From NCBI GenBank assembly GCA_041169865.1, contig JBEEIL010000056.1:1141-65140 (forward strand): DNA of 64,000 nt, read 5' to 3'. Shown here one piece after another: positions 41,671-47,535 of the stretch. The notes under the pieces were generated by a model. It was given only the letters and a program-made list of their open reading frames with translations, ran no database searches and had not been told where the DNA came from. The stretch is from Actinomycetota bacterium (GTDB taxonomy: Bacteria > Actinomycetota > Actinomycetes > Nanopelagicales > Nanopelagicaceae). Within the stretch, counting starts at the first letter, position 1, and every line of letters starts with the position of its first letter. A program made the translations under genes and the position numbers.

Positions 41671-41686
41671 TCGAACATCTGTTCGA
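41671..41686. promoter_or_regulatory. Actinobacterial LexA SOS box
   Basis: TCGAAC-ATCT-GTTCGA is an exact match to the TCGAAC-N4-GTTCGA consensus, 32 bp upstream of the DUF6504-dnaE2-dinB operon. Confidence 0.9.
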
Positions 41687-41718
41687 ATATCCACACCTGC
41701 TCAGGGGAAGAGTAAAAA

Positions 41719-42027
41719 ATGTCAGTCGAAAGAGCGTCAGTAAAGCCAGCAACACCTCACGTCATACCAGCCCACGATGTTCTTGCCGATGGAGGTCTTA
41801 CCCCCATCGAATTCACCTTTCGCGGTAAACGTTTTCGTATCCATACAGTGCTTTCGCGATGGTGCGAGGCAGGTGGATGGTGGAATCGCATCAGCGATGG
41901 CAAGTTCCGCCCTGACGATCAAGCTCGTGCGCTCTGGAAAGTTGAGGCGGCCCCTATCGGTGCCCTGACAACATTTGAACTCGAACGCGATGAAGCAACA
42001 GGGCAGTGGATTATCAGGTCGTTGTAA
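41719..42027 (+). CDS. DUF6504-like small protein (resembles the ImuB C-terminal domain)
   Basis: P..F.FRG.R.RI..VLSRW.E.GGWW...WKVEA...FELERD...W pattern; 3 bp upstream of dnaE2. Confidence 0.7.
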   Translation: MSVERASVKPATPHVIPAHDVLADGGLTPIEFTFRGKRFRIHTVLSRWCEAGGWWNRISDGKFRPDDQARALWKVEAAPIGALTTFELERDEATGQWIIRSL

Positions 42028-42030
42028 AAG

Positions 42031-45000
42031 ATGAGCTTTATCCATCTGCGAGTAGCAAGCGCCTACTCATTTAAATACGGAACCACACAACCACGCGATC
42101 TTGTAGCGCGCGCTGCAGAATGTGAGATGCCTGCGCTCGCACTTACTGATCGCGATGGTTTAGCTGGTGCAATCCGTTTTACTAAAGCAGCGGTAGCTCA
42201 CGGTATCGCACCCATCATCGGCGTTAACCTAGCAATTCGTATTGGCGATACATCAGGTACTTTGCCACGCGTTACAGTCTTAGCACATAGCGATGGCGGT
42301 TGGCGCTCGCTGGTGCGATTAATGACTGGGCTGCAGATGAATAGCCCAGATCGCACACCTATCCTTACTCCAGAACTTCTTGAAAAGTTCAGCAGTTACA
42401 CCACGCACTTGCATCTACTTCATGGACCCGAATCACCAATCTCGCAAGCGCTGACATCGCATCGCTTTGATGCTGCTCTAGAAATCTTTAATCAGACGCG
42501 AGATTTCTTTGCAGACCATGCCATCGAATGCGTTTCGCACTTAGCTCCTGGCAATGGACCGCGTTCTACCGCCCATGCTGCGCGCTCTCTTATCTTTGCG
42601 CGTGATAACGATATTGATGCTGTTCTCACCAATGCAGTACGTATGTGTTATCGGGATGATGGACCAGTAGCTGATGTTCTTGATTGTGCACGTCAATTAG
42701 TGCCGCTACATCCACGCCATGTCGAACGTCGCAACGCTGAAGCCTATTTAAAGAGTAGCGATGAGATGATCTCTTTAGCTGGTGAAATTGCACGTGCAGC
42801 TGGCGAACGCACACCACGCGCGCTTCTTGCGACAACGCGACAATGGGCCGAACGTGCAGTCTTATCTCCACAACGTGATATTGGTTTAGGAGGAATTCAC
42901 TTACCTGAACCACATGTGGTGGGCGCTGATTCACCTGCTGGCATGCGCACTTTGCTACGGGCTCGCTCTGAGGCAGGTATTAATTGGCGCTACAACGACA
43001 GCGCCACAATCACACAAGCGCGTGCCCGACTCGATGACGAACTCGCCATTGTTGCAACCCTTGGCTACGAATCATATTTTTTAACAGTTGCAGATATCAC
43101 TGATATGGCGCGCGCTGCGAATATTCGCGTTGCTGCACGTGGTAGTGGTGCTGGATCTTTAATCTGCCATCTTCTCGGAATCTCTGGCGTTGATCCAATG
43201 CAGCATGGCCTTCTCATGGAACGTTTCTGCTCGCCGCTACGACGAGCACTTCCTGATATTGATATCGATGTTGAATCTGCCAGGCGCCTTGAAATCTACG
43301 AGATGGTCTTTAAGAGATATGGTGCCCGTGATTGGAGCCAAGCTGGTTTGATATCGCGCTGCGCCACTGTTGCGATGGTTGATACCTACAGAGCGCGCCA
43401 TGCCATCCGTGATGCTGGCGCTGCACTAGGTATGCCAGCGCTAGAGATTGATCTCCTTGCTAAATCAATGCCTCACATTCGTGCTGGCAATATTGAAGCG
43501 GCGCTGAACTCACTTCCTGAACTCAAGAATCTCAACACCTCTGCTCCCTTAACCCGAGCCACAATTGCACTTGCTGCTCGCCTGGATGGTCTACCTCGCC
43601 ATTTAGCGATGCATCCCTGCGCGATGGTCTTATCCGATGCAGCATTTCTAGATCGCGCACCTGTCCAATTCAACGCCGGAGGATTTCCGATGGTTGAATT
43701 TGATAAAGATGACGTTGAAGATATTGGTTTACTGAAACTCGATATCTTAGGTGTGCGCATGCAATCGACTATCGCCCATGCTGTTCAAGAAATTAAACGC
43801 GTTGAGGGCGAGGAAGTTGATATTGATGCGCTTCCGCTTGATGATGCTGACACCTATGCTCTTATCCAATCAACAAAAACTTTAGGTATCTTTCAAGTAG
43901 AAAGCCCTGGGCAGCGCGAGCTTGTAGGCAAGTTAGAGCCACGTACTTTTAACGACCTCATCATCGATATCTCGCTCTTTCGGCCAGGGCCCGTAAAGAG
44001 CGACATGATTCGCCCCTTTCTTAATGCGCGCCACGGTTGGAATCTGGCACAAATCATTCATCCTGATTTAGCGCCGATCTTGTCTGAAACCGAAGGCGTT
44101 GTGGTCTTTCACGAGCAAGTAATTTCGATTATTTCGGTGATGACAGGTATCTCACTTGCTGCAGCTGATGAGAAACGCAGAGCTCTCGGAGATAAAGCAG
44201 GTCAGCAAGAAGTCTGTGATTGGTTCTTTCCTGCTGCTACCGAACGCGGCTATGAGTTAAAAGTTATTACTGAAATCTGGGATGTACTACGCGCCTTTGC
44301 ATCCTTTGGATTCTGCAAGGCGCATGCTGCTGCCTTTGCGCTACCTACCTATCAATCAGCGTGGCTGAAAACTCATCACCCAGCAGCCTTTATGGCAGGA
44401 GTTCTCACACATGATCCAGGCATGTATCCAAAGCGACTCATGCTCGATGAGGTTCGCCAAATGGGGGTTGCGATAGCGCCTCTCGATATCAATAAATCCA
44501 CAGCGGAATATCGGGTTGAACGCACACTTGATGGTGATGCTCTTCGACTAGCGCTTTCCTGTGTCGCTGGCATCTCTGAAAAAGAGATTGCATCTATTGT
44601 TCACGGCCAGCCTTATATAGACCTCGCTGATTTTTATCGCAGATCAGGAGCGTCAGTGCCGGTAACTGAGAACCTGATTATGACTGGCGCCTTTGATTCA
44701 ATCCATGCACACCAACGCGATCTCTTGCTTCATTTGGCAGATTTACAGAAATCACCCGTAGCGCATCTTCCTGGATCGCAACTTAGCCTTGGGTTTGCAC
44801 CCCCTGTATTAGAAAGTAGCGGTCTGCAACCACTCAACGTGGCCGAAAAGGTATCGAGCGAAATTACTCGTTTAGGAATGGATGTCACGCAACATATGCT
44901 CACTTTTTATGCGCCATTTCTCAACGCTATTGGAGCCGTGAAATCTTCTGATTTACTTTCATTACGATCTAATTCGACGGTACTTGTAGCTGGAGTCAAA

Positions 45001-45303
45001 GTTGCGCTACAGACCCCGCCAGTGCGTTCTGGGCGTCGCGTTATCTTCTTAACGCTCGATGATGGCTATGGATGTAGCGATTCAACGTTCTTTCCTGATG
45101 CGCAAGTTGATCACGCATCAACTCTCTATTCGACATCGCTACTTTTAGTACGTGGGCAGACCAGACGCACTGGCGCCCGCGGTATCTCTATCCGCGCAAC
45201 CGCAGTATGGGATCTGCGCCTTGCCTACGAAAAATGGCGCAGCGTCCAAGAACAAGGAGTCCAAGGAGTCCAAGGAGACGAAAGAGGTAGTGTGGCGATA
45301 TGA
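42031..45303 (+). CDS. dnaE2: Error-prone DNA polymerase III alpha, DnaE2
   Basis: Degenerate PHP (HLRVASAYS, ALTDRD), RGSGAGS, PDIDIDV, KLDILG and FGFCKAHA; OB fold; SOS box upstream. Confidence 0.92.
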   Translation: MSFIHLRVASAYSFKYGTTQPRDLVARAAECEMPALALTDRDGLAGAIRFTKAAVAHGIAPIIGVNLAIRIGDTSGTLPRVTVLAHSDGGWRSLVRLMTGLQMNSPDRTPILTPELLEKFSSYTTHLHLLHGPESPISQALTSHRFDAALEIFNQTRDFFADHAIECVSHLAPGNGPRSTAHAARSLIFARDNDIDAVLTNAVRMCYRDDGPVADVLDCARQLVPLHPRHVERRNAEAYLKSSDEMISLAGEIARAAGERTPRALLATTRQWAERAVLSPQRDIGLGGIHLPEPHVVGADSPAGMRTLLRARSEAGINWRYNDSATITQARARLDDELAIVATLGYESYFLTVADITDMARAANIRVAARGSGAGSLICHLLGISGVDPMQHGLLMERFCSPLRRALPDIDIDVESARRLEIYEMVFKRYGARDWSQAGLISRCATVAMVDTYRARHAIRDAGAALGMPALEIDLLAKSMPHIRAGNIEAALNSLPELKNLNTSAPLTRATIALAARLDGLPRHLAMHPCAMVLSDAAFLDRAPVQFNAGGFPMVEFDKDDVEDIGLLKLDILGVRMQSTIAHAVQEIKRVEGEEVDIDALPLDDADTYALIQSTKTLGIFQVESPGQRELVGKLEPRTFNDLIIDISLFRPGPVKSDMIRPFLNARHGWNLAQIIHPDLAPILSETEGVVVFHEQVISIISVMTGISLAAADEKRRALGDKAGQQEVCDWFFPAATERGYELKVITEIWDVLRAFASFGFCKAHAAAFALPTYQSAWLKTHHPAAFMAGVLTHDPGMYPKRLMLDEVRQMGVAIAPLDINKSTAEYRVERTLDGDALRLALSCVAGISEKEIASIVHGQPYIDLADFYRRSGASVPVTENLIMTGAFDSIHAHQRDLLLHLADLQKSPVAHLPGSQLSLGFAPPVLESSGLQPLNVAEKVSSEITRLGMDVTQHMLTFYAPFLNAIGAVKSSDLLSLRSNSTVLVAGVKVALQTPPVRSGRRVIFLTLDDGYGCSDSTFFPDAQVDHASTLYSTSLLLVRGQTRRTGARGISIRATAVWDLRLAYEKWRSVQEQGVQGVQGDERGSVAI
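45253..45279 (+). repeat. 3 x 9-bp tandem repeat (CAAGGAGTC x2, CAAGGAGAC)
   Basis: Seen directly; encodes QGVQGVQGD at the DnaE2 C-terminus. Confidence 0.8.
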
Positions 45304-46472
45304 CGGTCATCCTCCATGTAGATATGGATGCCTTCTACGCATCAGTTGCCGAGCTCGATCATCCAGAATACAAAGGTAAAGCTCTCGTTGTTGGCGCCGG
45401 AACACGTGGAGTAGTGCTCTCTGCAAATTACGAAGCGCGTAAATTTGGAATACGTGCAGCGATGCCAGTTGGTCGCGCAAAGAGAATAGCGCCACATGCC
45501 ATCTTTATCGCACCCGAACATCATCGTTACTCTGAAATTTCAGAGCGAGTTATGGCGATATTTCAATCGTATACGCCACTTGTAGAACCCATTTCGTTGG
45601 ATGAAGCCTTCCTGGATGTCACCGGATCACAGAAACTATTTGGATCAGGTCGCGAAATTGCCACAAAAATTCGTGCTCAAGTTGAAAAAGAAGAAGGCAT
45701 TACCTGTTCTGTAGGAATTGCACAATCTAAGTTCATTGCAAAATTAGCATCTCAACATTGCAAACCAAATGGCATGTTGGAAATCAAGCCGGATCGCATC
45801 TTGGAATTTCTCCATCCACTGCCAGTGCGCGCCATCTGGGGAGTAGGTCCCAAAACGGCAGAATCTCTGGAGCGACTTGGGCTGCACACCGTTGCAGATA
45901 TTGCGCATACTCCACGTGCCACATTGGTTCGCGCTCTTGGTGATGCGACAGGTGAATCGCTCTACGAATTGGCATGGGGGCGCGACTATCGCAATGTGAT
46001 TCCAGATGAACCCGAAAAGAGCATTGGGAACGAAGAAACCTTTAGCGAAGATCTCGATAATCCAGAAGAAATCCTGCGCGAGTTTTTACGTATGACCGAA
46101 AAAGCTACAGCGCGACTGCGAGAACGCTCTCTCTTTGCTAAGACAATTAGTATCAAAATAAAATTTGCCGATTTCTCGTCTCTTACGAGAGCCAAGACAG
46201 TTCCGATTGCAATTGATAACACCCACGACACATATGAAATTGTGAAGTCGCTCTACCTTGCGCTTAAAAATGAGGGCGCACGAATTCGACTCGTTGGCGT
46301 TTCGCTCTCGAACTTACAAGAGGGCGCACCCGTTCAACTTGAACTCGGAGCACGTGAACGCGGCTGGCGAGAAGCCGATAGCGCGATAGACCGCGCAAAA
46401 GCGCGCTTTGGCAGGGGGAGCGTTCGTCCAGGCAGGCTTATTCGCGCCGAGAACGAGGATGAAGATGAATAA
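45300..46472 (+). CDS. dinB: DNA polymerase IV (DinB)
   Basis: HVDMDAFYASV, SANYEAR, SLDEAFLD, KPNG and WGVG; C-terminal QLEL. Confidence 0.95.
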   Translation: MTVILHVDMDAFYASVAELDHPEYKGKALVVGAGTRGVVLSANYEARKFGIRAAMPVGRAKRIAPHAIFIAPEHHRYSEISERVMAIFQSYTPLVEPISLDEAFLDVTGSQKLFGSGREIATKIRAQVEKEEGITCSVGIAQSKFIAKLASQHCKPNGMLEIKPDRILEFLHPLPVRAIWGVGPKTAESLERLGLHTVADIAHTPRATLVRALGDATGESLYELAWGRDYRNVIPDEPEKSIGNEETFSEDLDNPEEILREFLRMTEKATARLRERSLFAKTISIKIKFADFSSLTRAKTVPIAIDNTHDTYEIVKSLYLALKNEGARIRLVGVSLSNLQEGAPVQLELGARERGWREADSAIDRAKARFGRGSVRPGRLIRAENEDEDE

Positions 46473-46540
46473 CGTCCACCGATGTGCCTCTAAAAACCCA
46501 TAAAGTGGCGCGCCAAGAAGTTCTGTTCTATTGTGTGAAT

Positions 46541-46894
46541 ATGCCACTTTCCGACCGTGAACGTCGCCTCTTAGCTGAGATGGAAGCCGCCTTAGCTACC
46601 GATGATCCACGCCTGGAATCACGACTAGCTGGCAATACGCTCACCCCGACAAAGCCACGCCTACCTCTTGGAATTGTCTCGATCCTTGCCGGAATCGCCA
46701 TTCTCTTTACCGGCCTAGTCACCAAGACAACTCCACTTGGCGTTGCCGGCTTCCTTGTTGCCCTTGTAGGAGTCATCATCGTGGCTCGCTCTATCTCCTC
46801 CTTGGCTCAGCGCGCTCCACGCCAAAAGAGCGCTCGCACATCTCTCTCGGCCCGCTTGGAAGAGCGTTGGAATCGCCGCGACTTTGAACAGTAA
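46541..46894 (+). CDS. DUF3040 membrane protein
   Basis: MPLSDRERRLLAEMEAALATDDP, two TM segments and LEERW; typical position upstream of mraZ. Confidence 0.85.
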   Translation: MPLSDRERRLLAEMEAALATDDPRLESRLAGNTLTPTKPRLPLGIVSILAGIAILFTGLVTKTTPLGVAGFLVALVGVIIVARSISSLAQRAPRQKSARTSLSARLEERWNRRDFEQ

Positions 46895-46917
46895 TCAGTA
46901 GCCCTTAGGCCTTTGTG

Positions 46918-46947
46918 AGCCCTGACCGATCTGGTCGGGGCTTTTTT
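46918..46947 (+). terminator. Rho-independent terminator
   Basis: AGCCCTGACC-GATCT-GGTCGGGGCT followed by a T-tract. Confidence 0.85.
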
Positions 46948-46964
46948 CATTCCCGCCTACATCT

Positions 46965-47056
46965 GTGGGCAGAGGTGGGGCTACAAAGGGAGGGCTAGGG
47001 AAAAATATGGGGCAGGGTGGTGTAAAAAGGAGGAAAGTGGTGTAAAGTGGGGAATT
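46965..47056 (+). promoter_or_regulatory. MraZ-binding direct repeats (GTGG at 10-bp period) in the dcw promoter
   Basis: GTGGGCAGAG-GTGGGGCTAC at 46965; GTGGTGTAAA-AAGGAGGAAA-GTGGTGTAAA-GTGGGGAATT at 47017-47056. Confidence 0.75.
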
Positions 47057-47103
47057 GAGCGGGAAATTCACGCTCACGACCTTGGGGAAGGCGGTGGATT
47101 GAG

Positions 47104-47535
47104 ATGTTTCTCGGTACTCATGAACCGCGCCTTGATGAGAAAGGTCGCCTAATCCTTCCCGCGAAATTCCGCGATGAACTCTCAGCTGGCCTAGTGATCA
47201 CCAAAGGCCAAGAGCGTTGCCTCTATGTATTCCCTTCCTCTGAATTTGCAACGATCACCGAAACGTTGCGACAAGCGCCAGTTACAGCAAAGAGCGCTCG
47301 CGATTACCAGCGCGTGATGTTCGCTGGAGCGCACGATGAAATTCCTGACCGTCAAGGTCGCGTCACGATTCCACAAGGGCTGCGCACTTATGCGGGCCTT
47401 GAAAAAGAGTGCGTAGTTATTGGCGCAAATACTCGCGTGGAAATTTGGGATAGCGCGGCATGGAGGGAGTACCTCGCTGACCGTGAAAAGAGTTTTGCTG
47501 ATGTCTCTGAGGAGGTTTTTCCGGGACTTTTTTAG
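47104..47535 (+). CDS. mraZ: Division/cell wall cluster repressor MraZ
   Basis: [23 protein letters not shown]; DRQGRVTIP; VEIWD. Confidence 0.97.

What the first reader, a model, noticed from the sequence alone, without database searches (positions are those of the whole stretch)
41671..46472. SOS mutagenesis cassette without ImuA/ImuB: stand-alone ImuB-C-like protein, DnaE2 and active DinB
Seen: a LexA box, then a 102-aa Trp-rich protein, dnaE2 (3-bp gap) and dinB (ATGA overlap). DinB keeps its catalytic residues (DMDAF, SLDE) and a clamp-like QLEL motif. Established: the canonical mutasome is ImuA-ImuB-DnaE2, in which ImuB is an inactive Y-family polymerase whose C-terminal region binds DnaE2. 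dnaE2-dinB linkage also occurs in streptomycetes. Inference: the small protein (W.E..WW...W.V...L...W pattern like the ImuB C-terminus) is a split-off DnaE2 adaptor, giving a two-active-polymerase mutasome. Its retention in a streamlined genome suggests importance under surface-water UV.
Basis: partly seen in the sequence, partly recalled or inferred. Interest (0 to 1): 0.65.

Follow-up and report, generated by a model that had tools for sequence, protein, structure and literature searches.

The report
SOS-controlled ImuB-C–DnaE2–DinB mutagenesis cassette
A freshwater acI actinobacterium keeps a compact, LexA-controlled three-gene operon (small ImuB-C-like protein, second DNA polymerase III alpha, active Pol IV) that is a real but already published type of actinobacterial error-prone polymerase module, here in its most reduced form.

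Summary
A perfect actinobacterial LexA box (41671-41686) precedes a 102-aa protein, a 1090-aa DnaE2-type polymerase (3-bp gap) and a 390-aa DinB (ATGA overlap).

The small protein is Pfam DUF6504. Sequence, profile and predicted fold link it to the C-terminal domain of ImuB. The polymerase is a second C-family copy; a true DnaE1 lies on the same contig. It groups with Streptomyces DnaE2, not with canonical ImuC. DinB has intact catalytic residues, a clamp motif and a RecA-N-terminus-like motif.

Five complete genomes of the same genus each carry the same cassette, one Y-family gene, no ImuA or ImuB, and perfect LexA boxes at only two sites, one before the cassette (the other before lexA in four of five).

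Standalone ImuB-C was described in 2013. The "DnaE2-[ImuB-C]-PolY-RecA" module, specific to Actinobacteria, was described in 2019 and 2026 (PMC6511836, PMC12926913).

What is particular here is the reduction. In 77 of 77 other actinobacterial loci the cassette also carries a SAV_6107-like HEPN gene, and in 55 of 58 a methyltransferase. This genus lacks the HEPN gene genome-wide and has no room for the methyltransferase in the cassette. Binding of the small protein to DnaE2 got only weak in-silico support.

The parts
41671..41686 (.). LexA (SOS) box TCGAACATCTGTTCGA, 33 bp upstream of the first start codon
   Evidence: Read. It is the only perfect copy in the assembly. It is conserved before the cassette in 5 complete genomes of the genus. 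Each of those has exactly one other perfect copy, which lies just upstream of lexA in four of the five. One-mismatch copies precede recA. A perfect box is present upstream in 77 of 81 homologous loci.
41719..42027 (+). imuB-C-like gene: 102-aa standalone DUF6504 protein (P0001), predicted all-beta domain
   Evidence: PF20114, E 3e-9, 37.5 bits against a cut-off of 24.2. Invariant P29, F32, V44, W48, W54, W55, V75, L88, W97 across 68 homologues. AlphaFold2 mean pLDDT 82.4, six strands and one short helix. Atlas TM 0.76 to a DUF6504 cluster and 0.73 to a 503-aa Y-family cluster. No PDB match.
42031..45303 (+). dnaE2 (DnaE2B-type second Pol III alpha, P0002, 1090 aa); PHP, palm/fingers, HhH and OB domains
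   Evidence: Pfam domains. It falls below both the NCBIfam DnaE1 cut-off (665.6 < 1002) and the error-prone cut-off (645.7 < 939), as does a Streptomyces homologue. Identity is 45-47% to Streptomyces copies, 28-31% to proteobacterial DnaE2 and 29% to the genome's own DnaE1. Catalytic PDIDID (408-413) and KLDILG (569-574) are conserved. In the PHP domain the first H-x-H reads H-L-R.
44779..44796 (+). QLSLGF, clamp-binding-like hexapeptide inside DnaE2 (residues 917-922)
   Evidence: It aligns with the QFDLF motif of the genome's own DnaE1. It is conserved as Q[LM]x[LFI][GA]F in the genus and as QLxLDL in other actinobacterial homologues. Clamp binding itself was not tested.
45300..46472 (+). 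dinB / PolY (P0003, 390 aa), catalytically intact Pol IV; ATGA overlap with dnaE2
   Evidence: NCBIfam PRK03858, 383 bits against a cut-off of 367; Pfam IMS, IMS_C and IMS_HHH. DMDAF[YF] and [SA]LDEAF are invariant in 22 cassette PolYs. It is the only Y-family gene in the MAG and in each of the 5 complete genomes of the genus.
46335..46349 (+). QLELG clamp-binding-like motif of DinB (residues 346-350)
   Evidence: Conserved as Q[LM]x[LF]G in 21 of 22 cassette PolYs aligned.
46374..46439 (+). RecA-NT-like motif of DinB (ADSAIDRAKARFGRGSVRPGRL, residues 359-380)
   Evidence: It resembles the N-terminus of the genome's own RecA (ALDTALAQIERQFGKGSVIKM). The pattern A.D.A..RFG...[VL]RP..L is conserved in all 22 aligned cassette PolYs. 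The motif class is defined in PMC6511836.
46484..46894 (+). DUF3040 membrane protein gene, 11 bp after dinB; possibly the last gene of the transcript
   Evidence: PF11239, E 2.7e-20. No terminator-like site lies between dinB and this gene. It follows dinB in 5 of 5 genomes of the genus and in 4 other loci. Co-transcription is inferred, not shown.
46917..46943 (+). Intrinsic-terminator-like hairpin (12-bp stem, T-run) before mraZ
   Evidence: mraZ starts at 47104.

Best explanation
This is a LexA-repressed operon for a damage-inducible translesion/mutagenic polymerase module of the published actinobacterial type DnaE2-[ImuB-C]-PolY-RecA.

Proposed steps:
1. After DNA damage, RecA filaments trigger LexA cleavage and the box at 41671-41686 is freed. 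This is inferred from the conserved box. lexA itself is missing from this 71%-complete MAG but present in all genomes of the genus that were checked.
2. Three translationally coupled genes are then made.
3. The 102-aa beta-domain protein, homologous to the ImuB C-terminal domain, is proposed to dock on the PHP domain of DnaE2. In the canonical mutasome the fused ImuB-C does this.
4. The active Pol IV supplies a clamp-binding motif and a RecA-NT motif that recruits RecA in place of ImuA.
5. DnaE2 also carries its own clamp-type hexapeptide.

The result would be a clamp-tethered assembly with two active polymerases: a Y-family inserter and a C-family extender lacking PHP proofreading residues.

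Shown: gene content, homology, motifs, conserved synteny and conserved LexA box. Inferred: the physical complex, the division of labour and the mutagenic outcome.

Compared with other actinobacteria, this genus carries a reduced cassette without the SAV_6107-like HEPN and methyltransferase genes.
For: Identity of the parts:
- DUF6504 scores above the cut-off.
- The DUF6504 model hits residues 427-500 of a canonical Agrobacterium ImuB that sits in an imuA-imuB-dnaE2 cassette (E 0.0019, sub-threshold). It is pre-annotated on ImuBs P0339 and P0379.
- hhalign of a 150-sequence standalone profile against 110 ImuB C-termini gives probability 70%, E 4e-5, over 54 columns.
- The predicted fold gives TM 0.73 over 89 residues to a 503-aa Y-family cluster.
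- DinB is above the Pol IV cut-off with intact catalytic, clamp and RecA-NT motifs.
- DnaE2 has catalytic Asp motifs and a clamp-like motif. A separate DnaE1 scores 1516.9 bits, well above its cut-off.

No ImuA or ImuB:
- There is one IMS and one DUF6504 hit in the MAG and in each of 5 complete genomes of the genus.
- The ImuA model hits only recA there.

Regulation:
- See the LexA-box results.

Conservation:
- DUF6504 is found in 32 of 36 genomes of the genus; the 4 misses are 60-84% complete.
- DUF6504 is followed by dnaE2 in 77 of 80 fetched loci; the other three loci end too soon after it to show one. PolY follows in 55 of 57 loci with enough sequence.

Binding:
- ESMFold2 complex of P0001 with DnaE2 residues 1-320 gave a verdict of 'weak support'. 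The median score was 0.36 and the best of 3 controls 0.02.
- The pass mark was reached by 58 of 80 solved complexes and 2 of 110 mismatched pairs. At scores of 0.60 or under, only 7 of those 80 solved complexes reached it, as did both of the mismatches that passed.
- Runs agree in at least 67% of contacts; partner pLDDT is at least 69. My own alignments were used, so the calibration counts hold only roughly.

Literature:
[quoted passage not shown] It also models ImuB-C on the DnaE2 PHP domain.
- PMC6511836 and PMC3765255 are consistent with this.
Against:
- The complex prediction is only a weak pass, of a kind the tool describes as more often wrong than right without a strong prior.
- The sequence link to ImuB-C is sub-threshold for single ImuBs (18.9 bits against a cut-off of 24.2). 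The word-based search for longer fused forms found none.
- PF20114 hit none of the probable actinobacterial ImuB frames in G037, G055, G056 and G058.
- lexA was not found in this MAG, which is 71% complete.
- No sigma-70-like promoter was picked up by the scan just upstream of the box.
- In other actinobacteria the cassette carries two more genes, so the three proteins may not be the whole machine.
Confidence: 0.8

Rival explanations
1. The genes are co-regulated but independent. The operon merely co-expresses two separate translesion polymerases under LexA. Pol IV would work alone on the clamp and DnaE2 alone through its own QLSLGF motif. The DUF6504 protein would have a separate role and there would be no joint mutasome.
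For: Both polymerases carry their own clamp-type motif. The complex test gave only weak support. In genomes with a canonical ImuB, DinB genes stand apart from dnaE2.
Against: The order DUF6504-dnaE2-PolY is kept in 55 of 57 diverse loci and with translational coupling here. Standalone DUF6504 and ImuB-like frames are mutually exclusive in the genomes sampled. The RecA-NT motif on this PolY is conserved. Published AlphaFold models treat the module as a complex.
Confidence: 0.12
2. The DUF6504 protein is a DNA-damage sensor or DNA-binding factor, as proposed for ImuB-C in 2013. It would guide repair enzymes to lesions rather than act as a protein adaptor for DnaE2.
For: PMC3765255 proposes this and notes that standalone ImuB-C also sits beside Ku/ligase, SplB photolyase and SRAP genes without DnaE2. 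The family has conserved Arg/Trp residues: W34, G36 and R37 are nearly invariant, and R74 likewise.
Against: In the 80 actinobacterial loci fetched, a dnaE2 gene lies downstream of the DUF6504 gene wherever enough sequence was fetched to show it. Published models place ImuB-C on the DnaE2 PHP domain. The weak complex pass points the same way. The two roles are not exclusive.
Confidence: 0.06
3. The polymerase is not an error-prone DnaE2 but a second replicative-type or repair-synthesis Pol III alpha. It could serve gap filling or end-related synthesis, as reported for Streptomyces telomeres. On this reading the cassette is not mutagenic.
For: It fails the NCBIfam 'error-prone DNA polymerase' cut-off and scores slightly higher on the DnaE1 model. 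RefSeq annotates the Streptomyces homologues simply as DNA polymerase III subunit alpha. PMC6511836 cites the Streptomyces telomere work.
Against: A bona fide DnaE1 is present. The gene is under a LexA box with a Y-family polymerase. A PHP metal-binding histidine is replaced. The protein lacks the C-terminal ~90 residues of DnaE1.
Confidence: 0.05

Closest known systems
DnaE2-[ImuB-C]-PolY-RecA module ('fourth DnaE2B group', e.g. Tessaracoccus lapidicaptus; PMC12926913, building on PMC6511836)
   Same: [quoted passage not shown] All of these were checked here.
   Different: It occurs in a genome-streamlined freshwater lineage (Nanopelagicaceae), which is not mentioned in that paper's main text. 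The cassette is compacted to three coupled genes. It lacks the SAV_6107-like HEPN gene and the methyltransferase gene that accompany the cassette in 77 of 77 and 55 of 58 other loci. The long disordered insert before the DnaE2 clamp motif is absent, and the PHP domain reads H-L-R instead of H-L-H.
Canonical ImuA(')-ImuB-DnaE2 (ImuC) mutasome of Mycobacterium, Caulobacter and Pseudomonas
   Same: Both are SOS-controlled. Both use a C-family polymerase together with a Y-family-fold protein, an ImuB-C beta domain, a RecA-NT motif and a clamp motif. Both are presumed to perform induced mutagenesis or translesion synthesis.
   Different: Here there is no ImuA. ImuB-C is a separate 102-aa protein. 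The Y-family partner is catalytically intact. DnaE2 is only 28-31% identical to canonical DnaE2, falls below the NCBIfam cut-off and carries its own clamp-like motif.
Streptomyces dnaE2-dinB2 pair (DnaE2B-iPolY-RecA)
   Same: These are the closest DnaE2 relatives found (45-47% identity). They show dnaE2-polY linkage in an actinobacterium without ImuA or ImuB.
   Different: According to PMC6511836, Streptomyces DinB2 is catalytically inactive and no ImuB-C is present. Here the PolY is intact and ImuB-C is present.
Geobacter lexA-imuB-C-polY operon (PolY-[ImuB-C]-RecA)
   Same: It also has a standalone ImuB-C with an active PolY under SOS control. It is transcribed as a unit and is damage-induced, according to the reference cited in PMC6511836.
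   Different: It has no DnaE2 and lexA lies inside the operon. Here DnaE2 lies between the two genes and lexA is elsewhere.

Membership tests
DnaE2-[ImuB-C]-PolY-RecA module (PMC12926913) | Standalone ImuB-C-family protein encoded next to dnaE2 | tested here: met
   PF20114 37.5 bits against a cut-off of 24.2. Link to the ImuB C-terminus. A 3-bp gap separates it from dnaE2.
DnaE2-[ImuB-C]-PolY-RecA module (PMC12926913) | DnaE2 of the group found in genomes lacking imuA and imuB (DnaE2B) | tested here: met
   Its nearest relatives are Streptomyces DnaE2-type copies (45-47% identity), against 28-31% to canonical DnaE2. No ImuA or ImuB was found in the MAG or in 5 complete genomes of the genus. 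No tree against the paper's own groups was built.
DnaE2-[ImuB-C]-PolY-RecA module (PMC12926913) | Catalytically intact Y-family polymerase with a RecA-NT motif and a clamp motif | tested here: met
   DMDAF, SLDE, QLELG and the ...RFGRGSVRP... motif are present and conserved in 22 cassette PolYs.
DnaE2-[ImuB-C]-PolY-RecA module (PMC12926913) | RecA present in the genome | tested here: met
   recA on contig C23, 476 bits.
DnaE2-[ImuB-C]-PolY-RecA module (PMC12926913) | The proteins form a physical complex | tested here: inconclusive
   P0001 with the DnaE2 PHP region (residues 1-320) gave 'weak support': score 0.36 against a best control of 0.02 (calibration counts are given under the best explanation). 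PolY and RecA contacts were not tested.
Canonical ImuA-ImuB-DnaE2 mutasome | ImuA / ImuA' (inactive RecA-like protein) encoded in the genome | tested here: not met
   NF033429 hits only recA in the MAG and in all genomes of the genus; none is over the cut-off. PF00154 finds only RecA and a 458-464-aa weak hit, probably RadA. The model is weak for actinobacterial ImuA'; it detected the probable G055 copy at only E 3.3e-4.
Canonical ImuA-ImuB-DnaE2 mutasome | ImuB: catalytically dead Y-family protein with a fused ImuB-C domain | tested here: not met
   There is a single IMS hit per genome and it is the intact DinB. The single DUF6504 hit lies in a ~100-aa frame.
Canonical ImuA-ImuB-DnaE2 mutasome | DnaE2 matching the 'error-prone DNA polymerase' family (NF004225) | tested here: not met
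   645.7 bits against a cut-off of 939. A canonical Agrobacterium DnaE2 scores 1384.
Pfam DUF6504 (PF20114) | Score over the gathering threshold across the domain | tested here: met
   37.5 bits against 24.2, residues 25-98 on profile positions 23-97 of 103.
DNA polymerase IV (DinB) | NCBIfam Pol IV model over its cut-off, with catalytic D8, D101 and E102 equivalents | tested here: met
   NF003015, 383 bits against 367. DMDAF and SLDE are present.
Actinobacterial LexA (SOS) regulon | TCGAAC-N4-GTTCGA palindrome in the promoter region, shared with lexA and recA | tested here: met
   A perfect box lies 33 bp before the start codon. In 5 complete genomes of the genus, perfect boxes occur at only two sites: one before the cassette, and the other just upstream of lexA in four of the five. 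One-mismatch boxes precede recA.
Actinobacterial LexA (SOS) regulon | LexA binds the box and the operon is damage-induced | not testable with these tools
   lexA was not found in this 71%-complete MAG.

The most novel reading that the evidence does not exclude
The acI (Nanopelagicaceae) cassette may be the natural minimal core of the actinobacterial DnaE2B mutasome: ImuB-C, DnaE2, active PolY and host RecA. If so, the SAV_6107-like HEPN protein and the SAM methyltransferase are dispensable accessory subunits. These two genes sit inside the cassette in essentially all other actinobacteria sampled and are not mentioned in the main text of the polymerase survey I read. The loss would have occurred during genome streamlining in this genus, and G045, another 1.4-Mb genome from a different family, shows the same compact form; whether that loss was independent was not tested. 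This would give a defined three-protein system for reconstitution and would flag two unstudied candidate mutasome components elsewhere.
Probability: 0.35. Interest if true: 0.45.

Novelty: new member of a known kind. Interest (0 to 1): 0.3.

Why it matters
The module type has been predicted from comparative genomics and AlphaFold modelling, but no representative has been studied experimentally.

acI actinobacteria are among the most abundant freshwater bacteria and have genomes of 1.3-1.5 Mb. This 4.8-kb cassette holds their only Y-family polymerase and their only translesion system. It is present in every complete genome of the genus examined. A perfect LexA box occurs at only two sites in each of those genomes, and one of them precedes this cassette. 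Damage tolerance by this module is therefore evidently under selection in sunlit surface water.

The three-gene form is the simplest natural version of the cassette. That makes it a convenient candidate for biochemical reconstitution. It is also a useful contrast for asking what the HEPN and methyltransferase genes add in other actinobacteria.

It does not change the current understanding of SOS mutagenesis.

Tried and rejected
- Search for fused (longer) relatives of the small protein with the search for homologous proteins, lengths 'longer', found none. This is weak evidence because the method is word-based.
- The exhaustive profile search returned 1310 hits. The 150 listed were all 92-256 aa standalone proteins, so it could not itself show the ImuB link.
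- hhalign of the 16-sequence profile against a single ImuB gave only 7% probability. It became usable only with larger profiles on both sides.
- Sequence search of PDB chains gave nothing meaningful (E about 0.9). Foldseek against the PDB gave no match at E <= 0.001. This agrees with the published statement that ImuB-C has no close solved relative.
- The search for related loci with the mixed alignment A1 failed for lack of a conserved stretch. It was repeated with A2, which biases the 80 loci towards non-acI actinomycetes.
- The sigma-70 scan found no promoter-like site on the + strand just before the LexA box. By eye, TTGCCC-17 nt-TACTTT ends at the box, but I do not rely on it.
- One-mismatch LexA boxes elsewhere in the MAG (C49, C62, C68) were no more frequent than the reversed-pattern control. 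Two lie inside genes. The C62 copy overlaps the annotated start of a DUF328/YaaA-like ORF about 300 bp from the contig end. I give them no weight.
- I considered whether the polymerase could be the replicative DnaE. This is rejected because a 1177-aa DnaE1 scoring 1516.9 bits lies 25 kb downstream on the same contig.
Full report
**What is in the window**

The window is part of contig C56 of a 1.02-Mb, 75-contig MAG that is 71% complete. Close homologues of its proteins are labelled Candidatus Nanopelagicaceae, the freshwater acI lineage. GC content is 45-51%.

At 41671-41686 lies TCGAACATCTGTTCGA, a perfect actinobacterial LexA palindrome. Three ORFs follow:
- 41719-42027 (102 aa, P0001)
- 42031-45303 (1090 aa, P0002)
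- 45300-46472 (390 aa, P0003)

**Identity of the three proteins**

*P0001.* It is Pfam DUF6504 (PF20114, E 3e-9, 37.5 bits against a cut-off of 24.2) and has no NCBIfam model. About 200 close relatives exist in freshwater metagenomes, all 88-157 aa and all annotated as hypothetical or DUF6504. An exhaustive profile search found 1310 relatives, and the 150 listed were all small standalone proteins.

*P0002.* It has the full Pol III alpha architecture: PHP, palm/NTPase, fingers, HhH and OB. It falls below both the DnaE1 equivalog cut-off (665.6 < 1002) and the 'error-prone DNA polymerase' cut-off (645.7 < 939). A Streptomyces plasmid homologue behaves the same way, whereas an Agrobacterium DnaE2 scores 1384 on the error-prone model.

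P0002 is 45-47% identical to Streptomyces copies, 28-31% to proteobacterial DnaE2 and 29% to the genome's own DnaE1. That DnaE1 is 1177 aa, scores 1516.9 bits and lies on the same contig. P0002 is therefore a second, non-replicative C-family polymerase of the Streptomyces-like (DnaE2B) kind.

Its catalytic PDIDID and KLDILG motifs are conserved. The first PHP H-x-H reads H-L-R in this genus.

*P0003.* It passes the Pol IV model (383 bits against 367) and keeps DMDAF and SLDE.

**Is the small protein ImuB-C-like?**

Four lines of evidence agree.
1. The DUF6504 model matches residues 427-500 of a canonical 503-aa Agrobacterium ImuB that sits between an annotated ImuA and an error-prone polymerase. 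The match is sub-threshold (E 0.0019). Among 14 control genomes the model rings only in Caulobacter, which I know to carry imuA-imuB-dnaE2. PF20114 is pre-annotated on ImuBs P0339 and P0379.
2. hhalign of 150 standalone sequences against 110 ImuB C-termini gives probability 70% and E 4e-5 over 54 columns. It aligns the P..F.WRG+...V core and the WW pair.
3. An AlphaFold2 model of P0001 (pLDDT 82.4) is an all-beta domain. It matches a DUF6504 cluster (TM 0.76) and a 1595-member cluster of 503-aa Y-family proteins (TM 0.73 by the query, 89 residues, 2.1 Å) in the ESM Atlas. It has no PDB match. The 2026 survey likewise describes ImuB-C as a beta-barrel without close solved relatives.
4. In the genomes sampled, standalone DUF6504 and ImuB-like frames exclude one another. 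Four of the six class-level genomes without DUF6504 (G037, G055, G056, G058) instead have a weak IMS hit in a 600-870-aa frame. In G055 this is preceded by a weak ImuA hit.

**No ImuA or ImuB**

The MAG has one IMS hit, one DUF6504 hit and two Pol III alpha hits. Because it is incomplete, I checked five complete single-contig genomes of the same genus. Each has exactly one IMS gene, one DUF6504, DnaE1 plus DnaE2, one RecA and one LexA, with the same gene order. The ImuA model hits only recA in the genus.

**Regulation**

The perfect box is unique in the MAG. In each complete genome of the genus, perfect boxes occur at only two sites. One lies before the cassette. In four of the five genomes the other lies just upstream of lexA. 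One-mismatch boxes lie about 200 bp upstream of recA in all five.

Across 81 homologous loci from diverse Actinomycetota, 77 have a perfect box within 600 bp upstream. SOS control is thus strongly supported by conservation, although lexA is missing from this assembly.

An 11-bp gap separates dinB from a DUF3040 gene. A strong terminator-like hairpin follows at 46917-46943, before mraZ. The transcript may therefore include DUF3040.

**Motifs relevant to mechanism**

The DinB C-terminus carries QLELG (residues 346-350) and ADSAIDRAKARFGRGSVRPGRL (359-380). The second resembles the genome's own RecA N-terminus, ALDTALAQIERQFGKGSVIKM. Both motifs are conserved in 22 cassette PolYs. This is the RecA-NT motif of PMC6511836.

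DnaE2 carries QLSLGF (917-922), which aligns with QFDLF of DnaE1. It is conserved as Q[LM]x[LFI][GA]F in the genus and as QLxLDL elsewhere. Another first-stage note had flagged this motif. I confirm its conservation, but clamp binding is untested.

**Binding test**

I folded P0001 with DnaE2 residues 1-320, the PHP region that contacts ImuB-C in published models, using 68-row alignments in matching order.

The verdict was 'weak support': median score 0.36, best of 3 controls 0.02. The mark was reached by 58 of 80 solved complexes and 2 of 110 mismatched pairs. At 0.60 or under, only 7 of those 80 solved complexes reached it, as did both of the mismatches that passed. Runs agree in at least 67% of contacts and partner pLDDT is at least 69. 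I used my own alignments, so the counts hold only roughly.

This is compatible with the adaptor idea but does not establish it.

**Comparison with the literature**

- Standalone ImuB-C proteins linked to DinB and DnaE2 were described in 2013 (PMC3765255).
- ImuA-less variants with an active or inactive PolY, standalone ImuB-C and/or DnaE2 were described in 2019 (PMC6511836).
[quoted passage not shown] It gives Tessaracoccus lapidicaptus as an example and says that DnaE2-[ImuB-C]-PolY-RecA occurs only in Actinobacteria (PMC12926913).

The cassette here meets every sequence-level criterion of that module. No paper in the library mentions Nanopelagic* together with DnaE2, and none mentions DUF6504.

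**What is particular here**

In 77 of 77 other actinobacterial loci with DUF6504 followed by dnaE2, a SAV_6107-like HEPN gene lies between the two (PF18726, E 2.7e-36 in L063). In 55 of 58, a class-I SAM methyltransferase lies between dnaE2 and polY.

PF18726 is found in 21 of 24 other-family genomes of the class but in none of the 37 genomes of this genus, including the five complete ones. Three of those 24 genomes (G042, G050, G059) are unpublished, so these class-level tallies include them. None of their sequences was used in alignments.

Another 1.4-Mb genome of a different family (G045) also has the compact form. The acI cassette is thus a reduced three-gene version. It also has shorter loops in ImuB-C and lacks the long insert before the DnaE2 clamp motif.

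The words HEPN and methyltransferase do not occur in the main text of the 2026 survey. The 2013 HEPN survey lists SAV_6107 only as an actinobacterial family without the catalytic motif and gives no context for it.

The 80 loci were retrieved with peptide patterns from non-acI sequences, so they are not an unbiased sample.

**Verdict**

The feature is real, strongly conserved and correctly interpreted, but it is a new member of a published kind. Retention in every complete genome of a streamlined genus, as the sole translesion system and one of the very few sites with a perfect LexA box, supports functional importance. The link to UV remains an inference.

Noticed in passing
L063:6755-7282 and L063:11080-11916 (Acidothermaceae bacterium B102); likewise L037-L116: In other actinobacteria the cassette has five genes: imuB-C, a SAV_6107-like HEPN gene (PF18726), dnaE2, a SAM methyltransferase and polY. 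The HEPN gene is present in 77 of 77 loci and the methyltransferase in 55 of 58. PF18726 is absent from all 37 genomes of the window's genus. In ImuB-type genomes it sits directly upstream of a PolY gene. I found no mention of this link in the papers read.
   Followed up: partly
window 44779-44796: DnaE2 carries QLSLGF at the position of the DnaE1 internal clamp motif QFDLF. It is conserved across the DnaE2B homologues examined, so this DnaE2 may reach the clamp without ImuB.
   Followed up: partly
window 46484-47535: dinB is followed after 11 bp by a DUF3040 membrane protein gene, then a strong terminator-like hairpin and mraZ-rsmH (start of the dcw cluster). The order polY-DUF3040 is also seen in 5 genomes of the genus and 4 distant loci, so the cassette's position next to the division cluster is old.
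   Followed up: partly
window 42040-42054 (DnaE2 residues 4-8): The first PHP metal-binding H-x-H is H-L-R (H-L-N in one genome of the genus), whereas other actinobacterial homologues keep H-L-H. This suggests loss of any PHP exonuclease activity in the acI lineage.
   Followed up: no
L118 (G045:C87:1001-4480): In a second small-genome actinobacterium the compact cassette has its dnaE2 in two frames (470 + 674 aa). This is either a frameshift or pseudogene, or an assembly error.
   Followed up: no
G029:C1:857090-857164: In one complete genome of the genus, the tandem perfect plus one-mismatch LexA boxes lie 7 kb from the LexA_DNA_bind hit rather than directly upstream of it. A single one-mismatch box precedes that gene. 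The neighbouring gene was not examined.
   Followed up: no
G000:C62:22618-22633: A one-mismatch LexA box (TCGAACAAATGTTCGG) overlaps the start of a DUF328/YaaA-like ORF about 300 bp from a contig end. The missing lexA or another SOS gene might lie just beyond the contig end.
   Followed up: no
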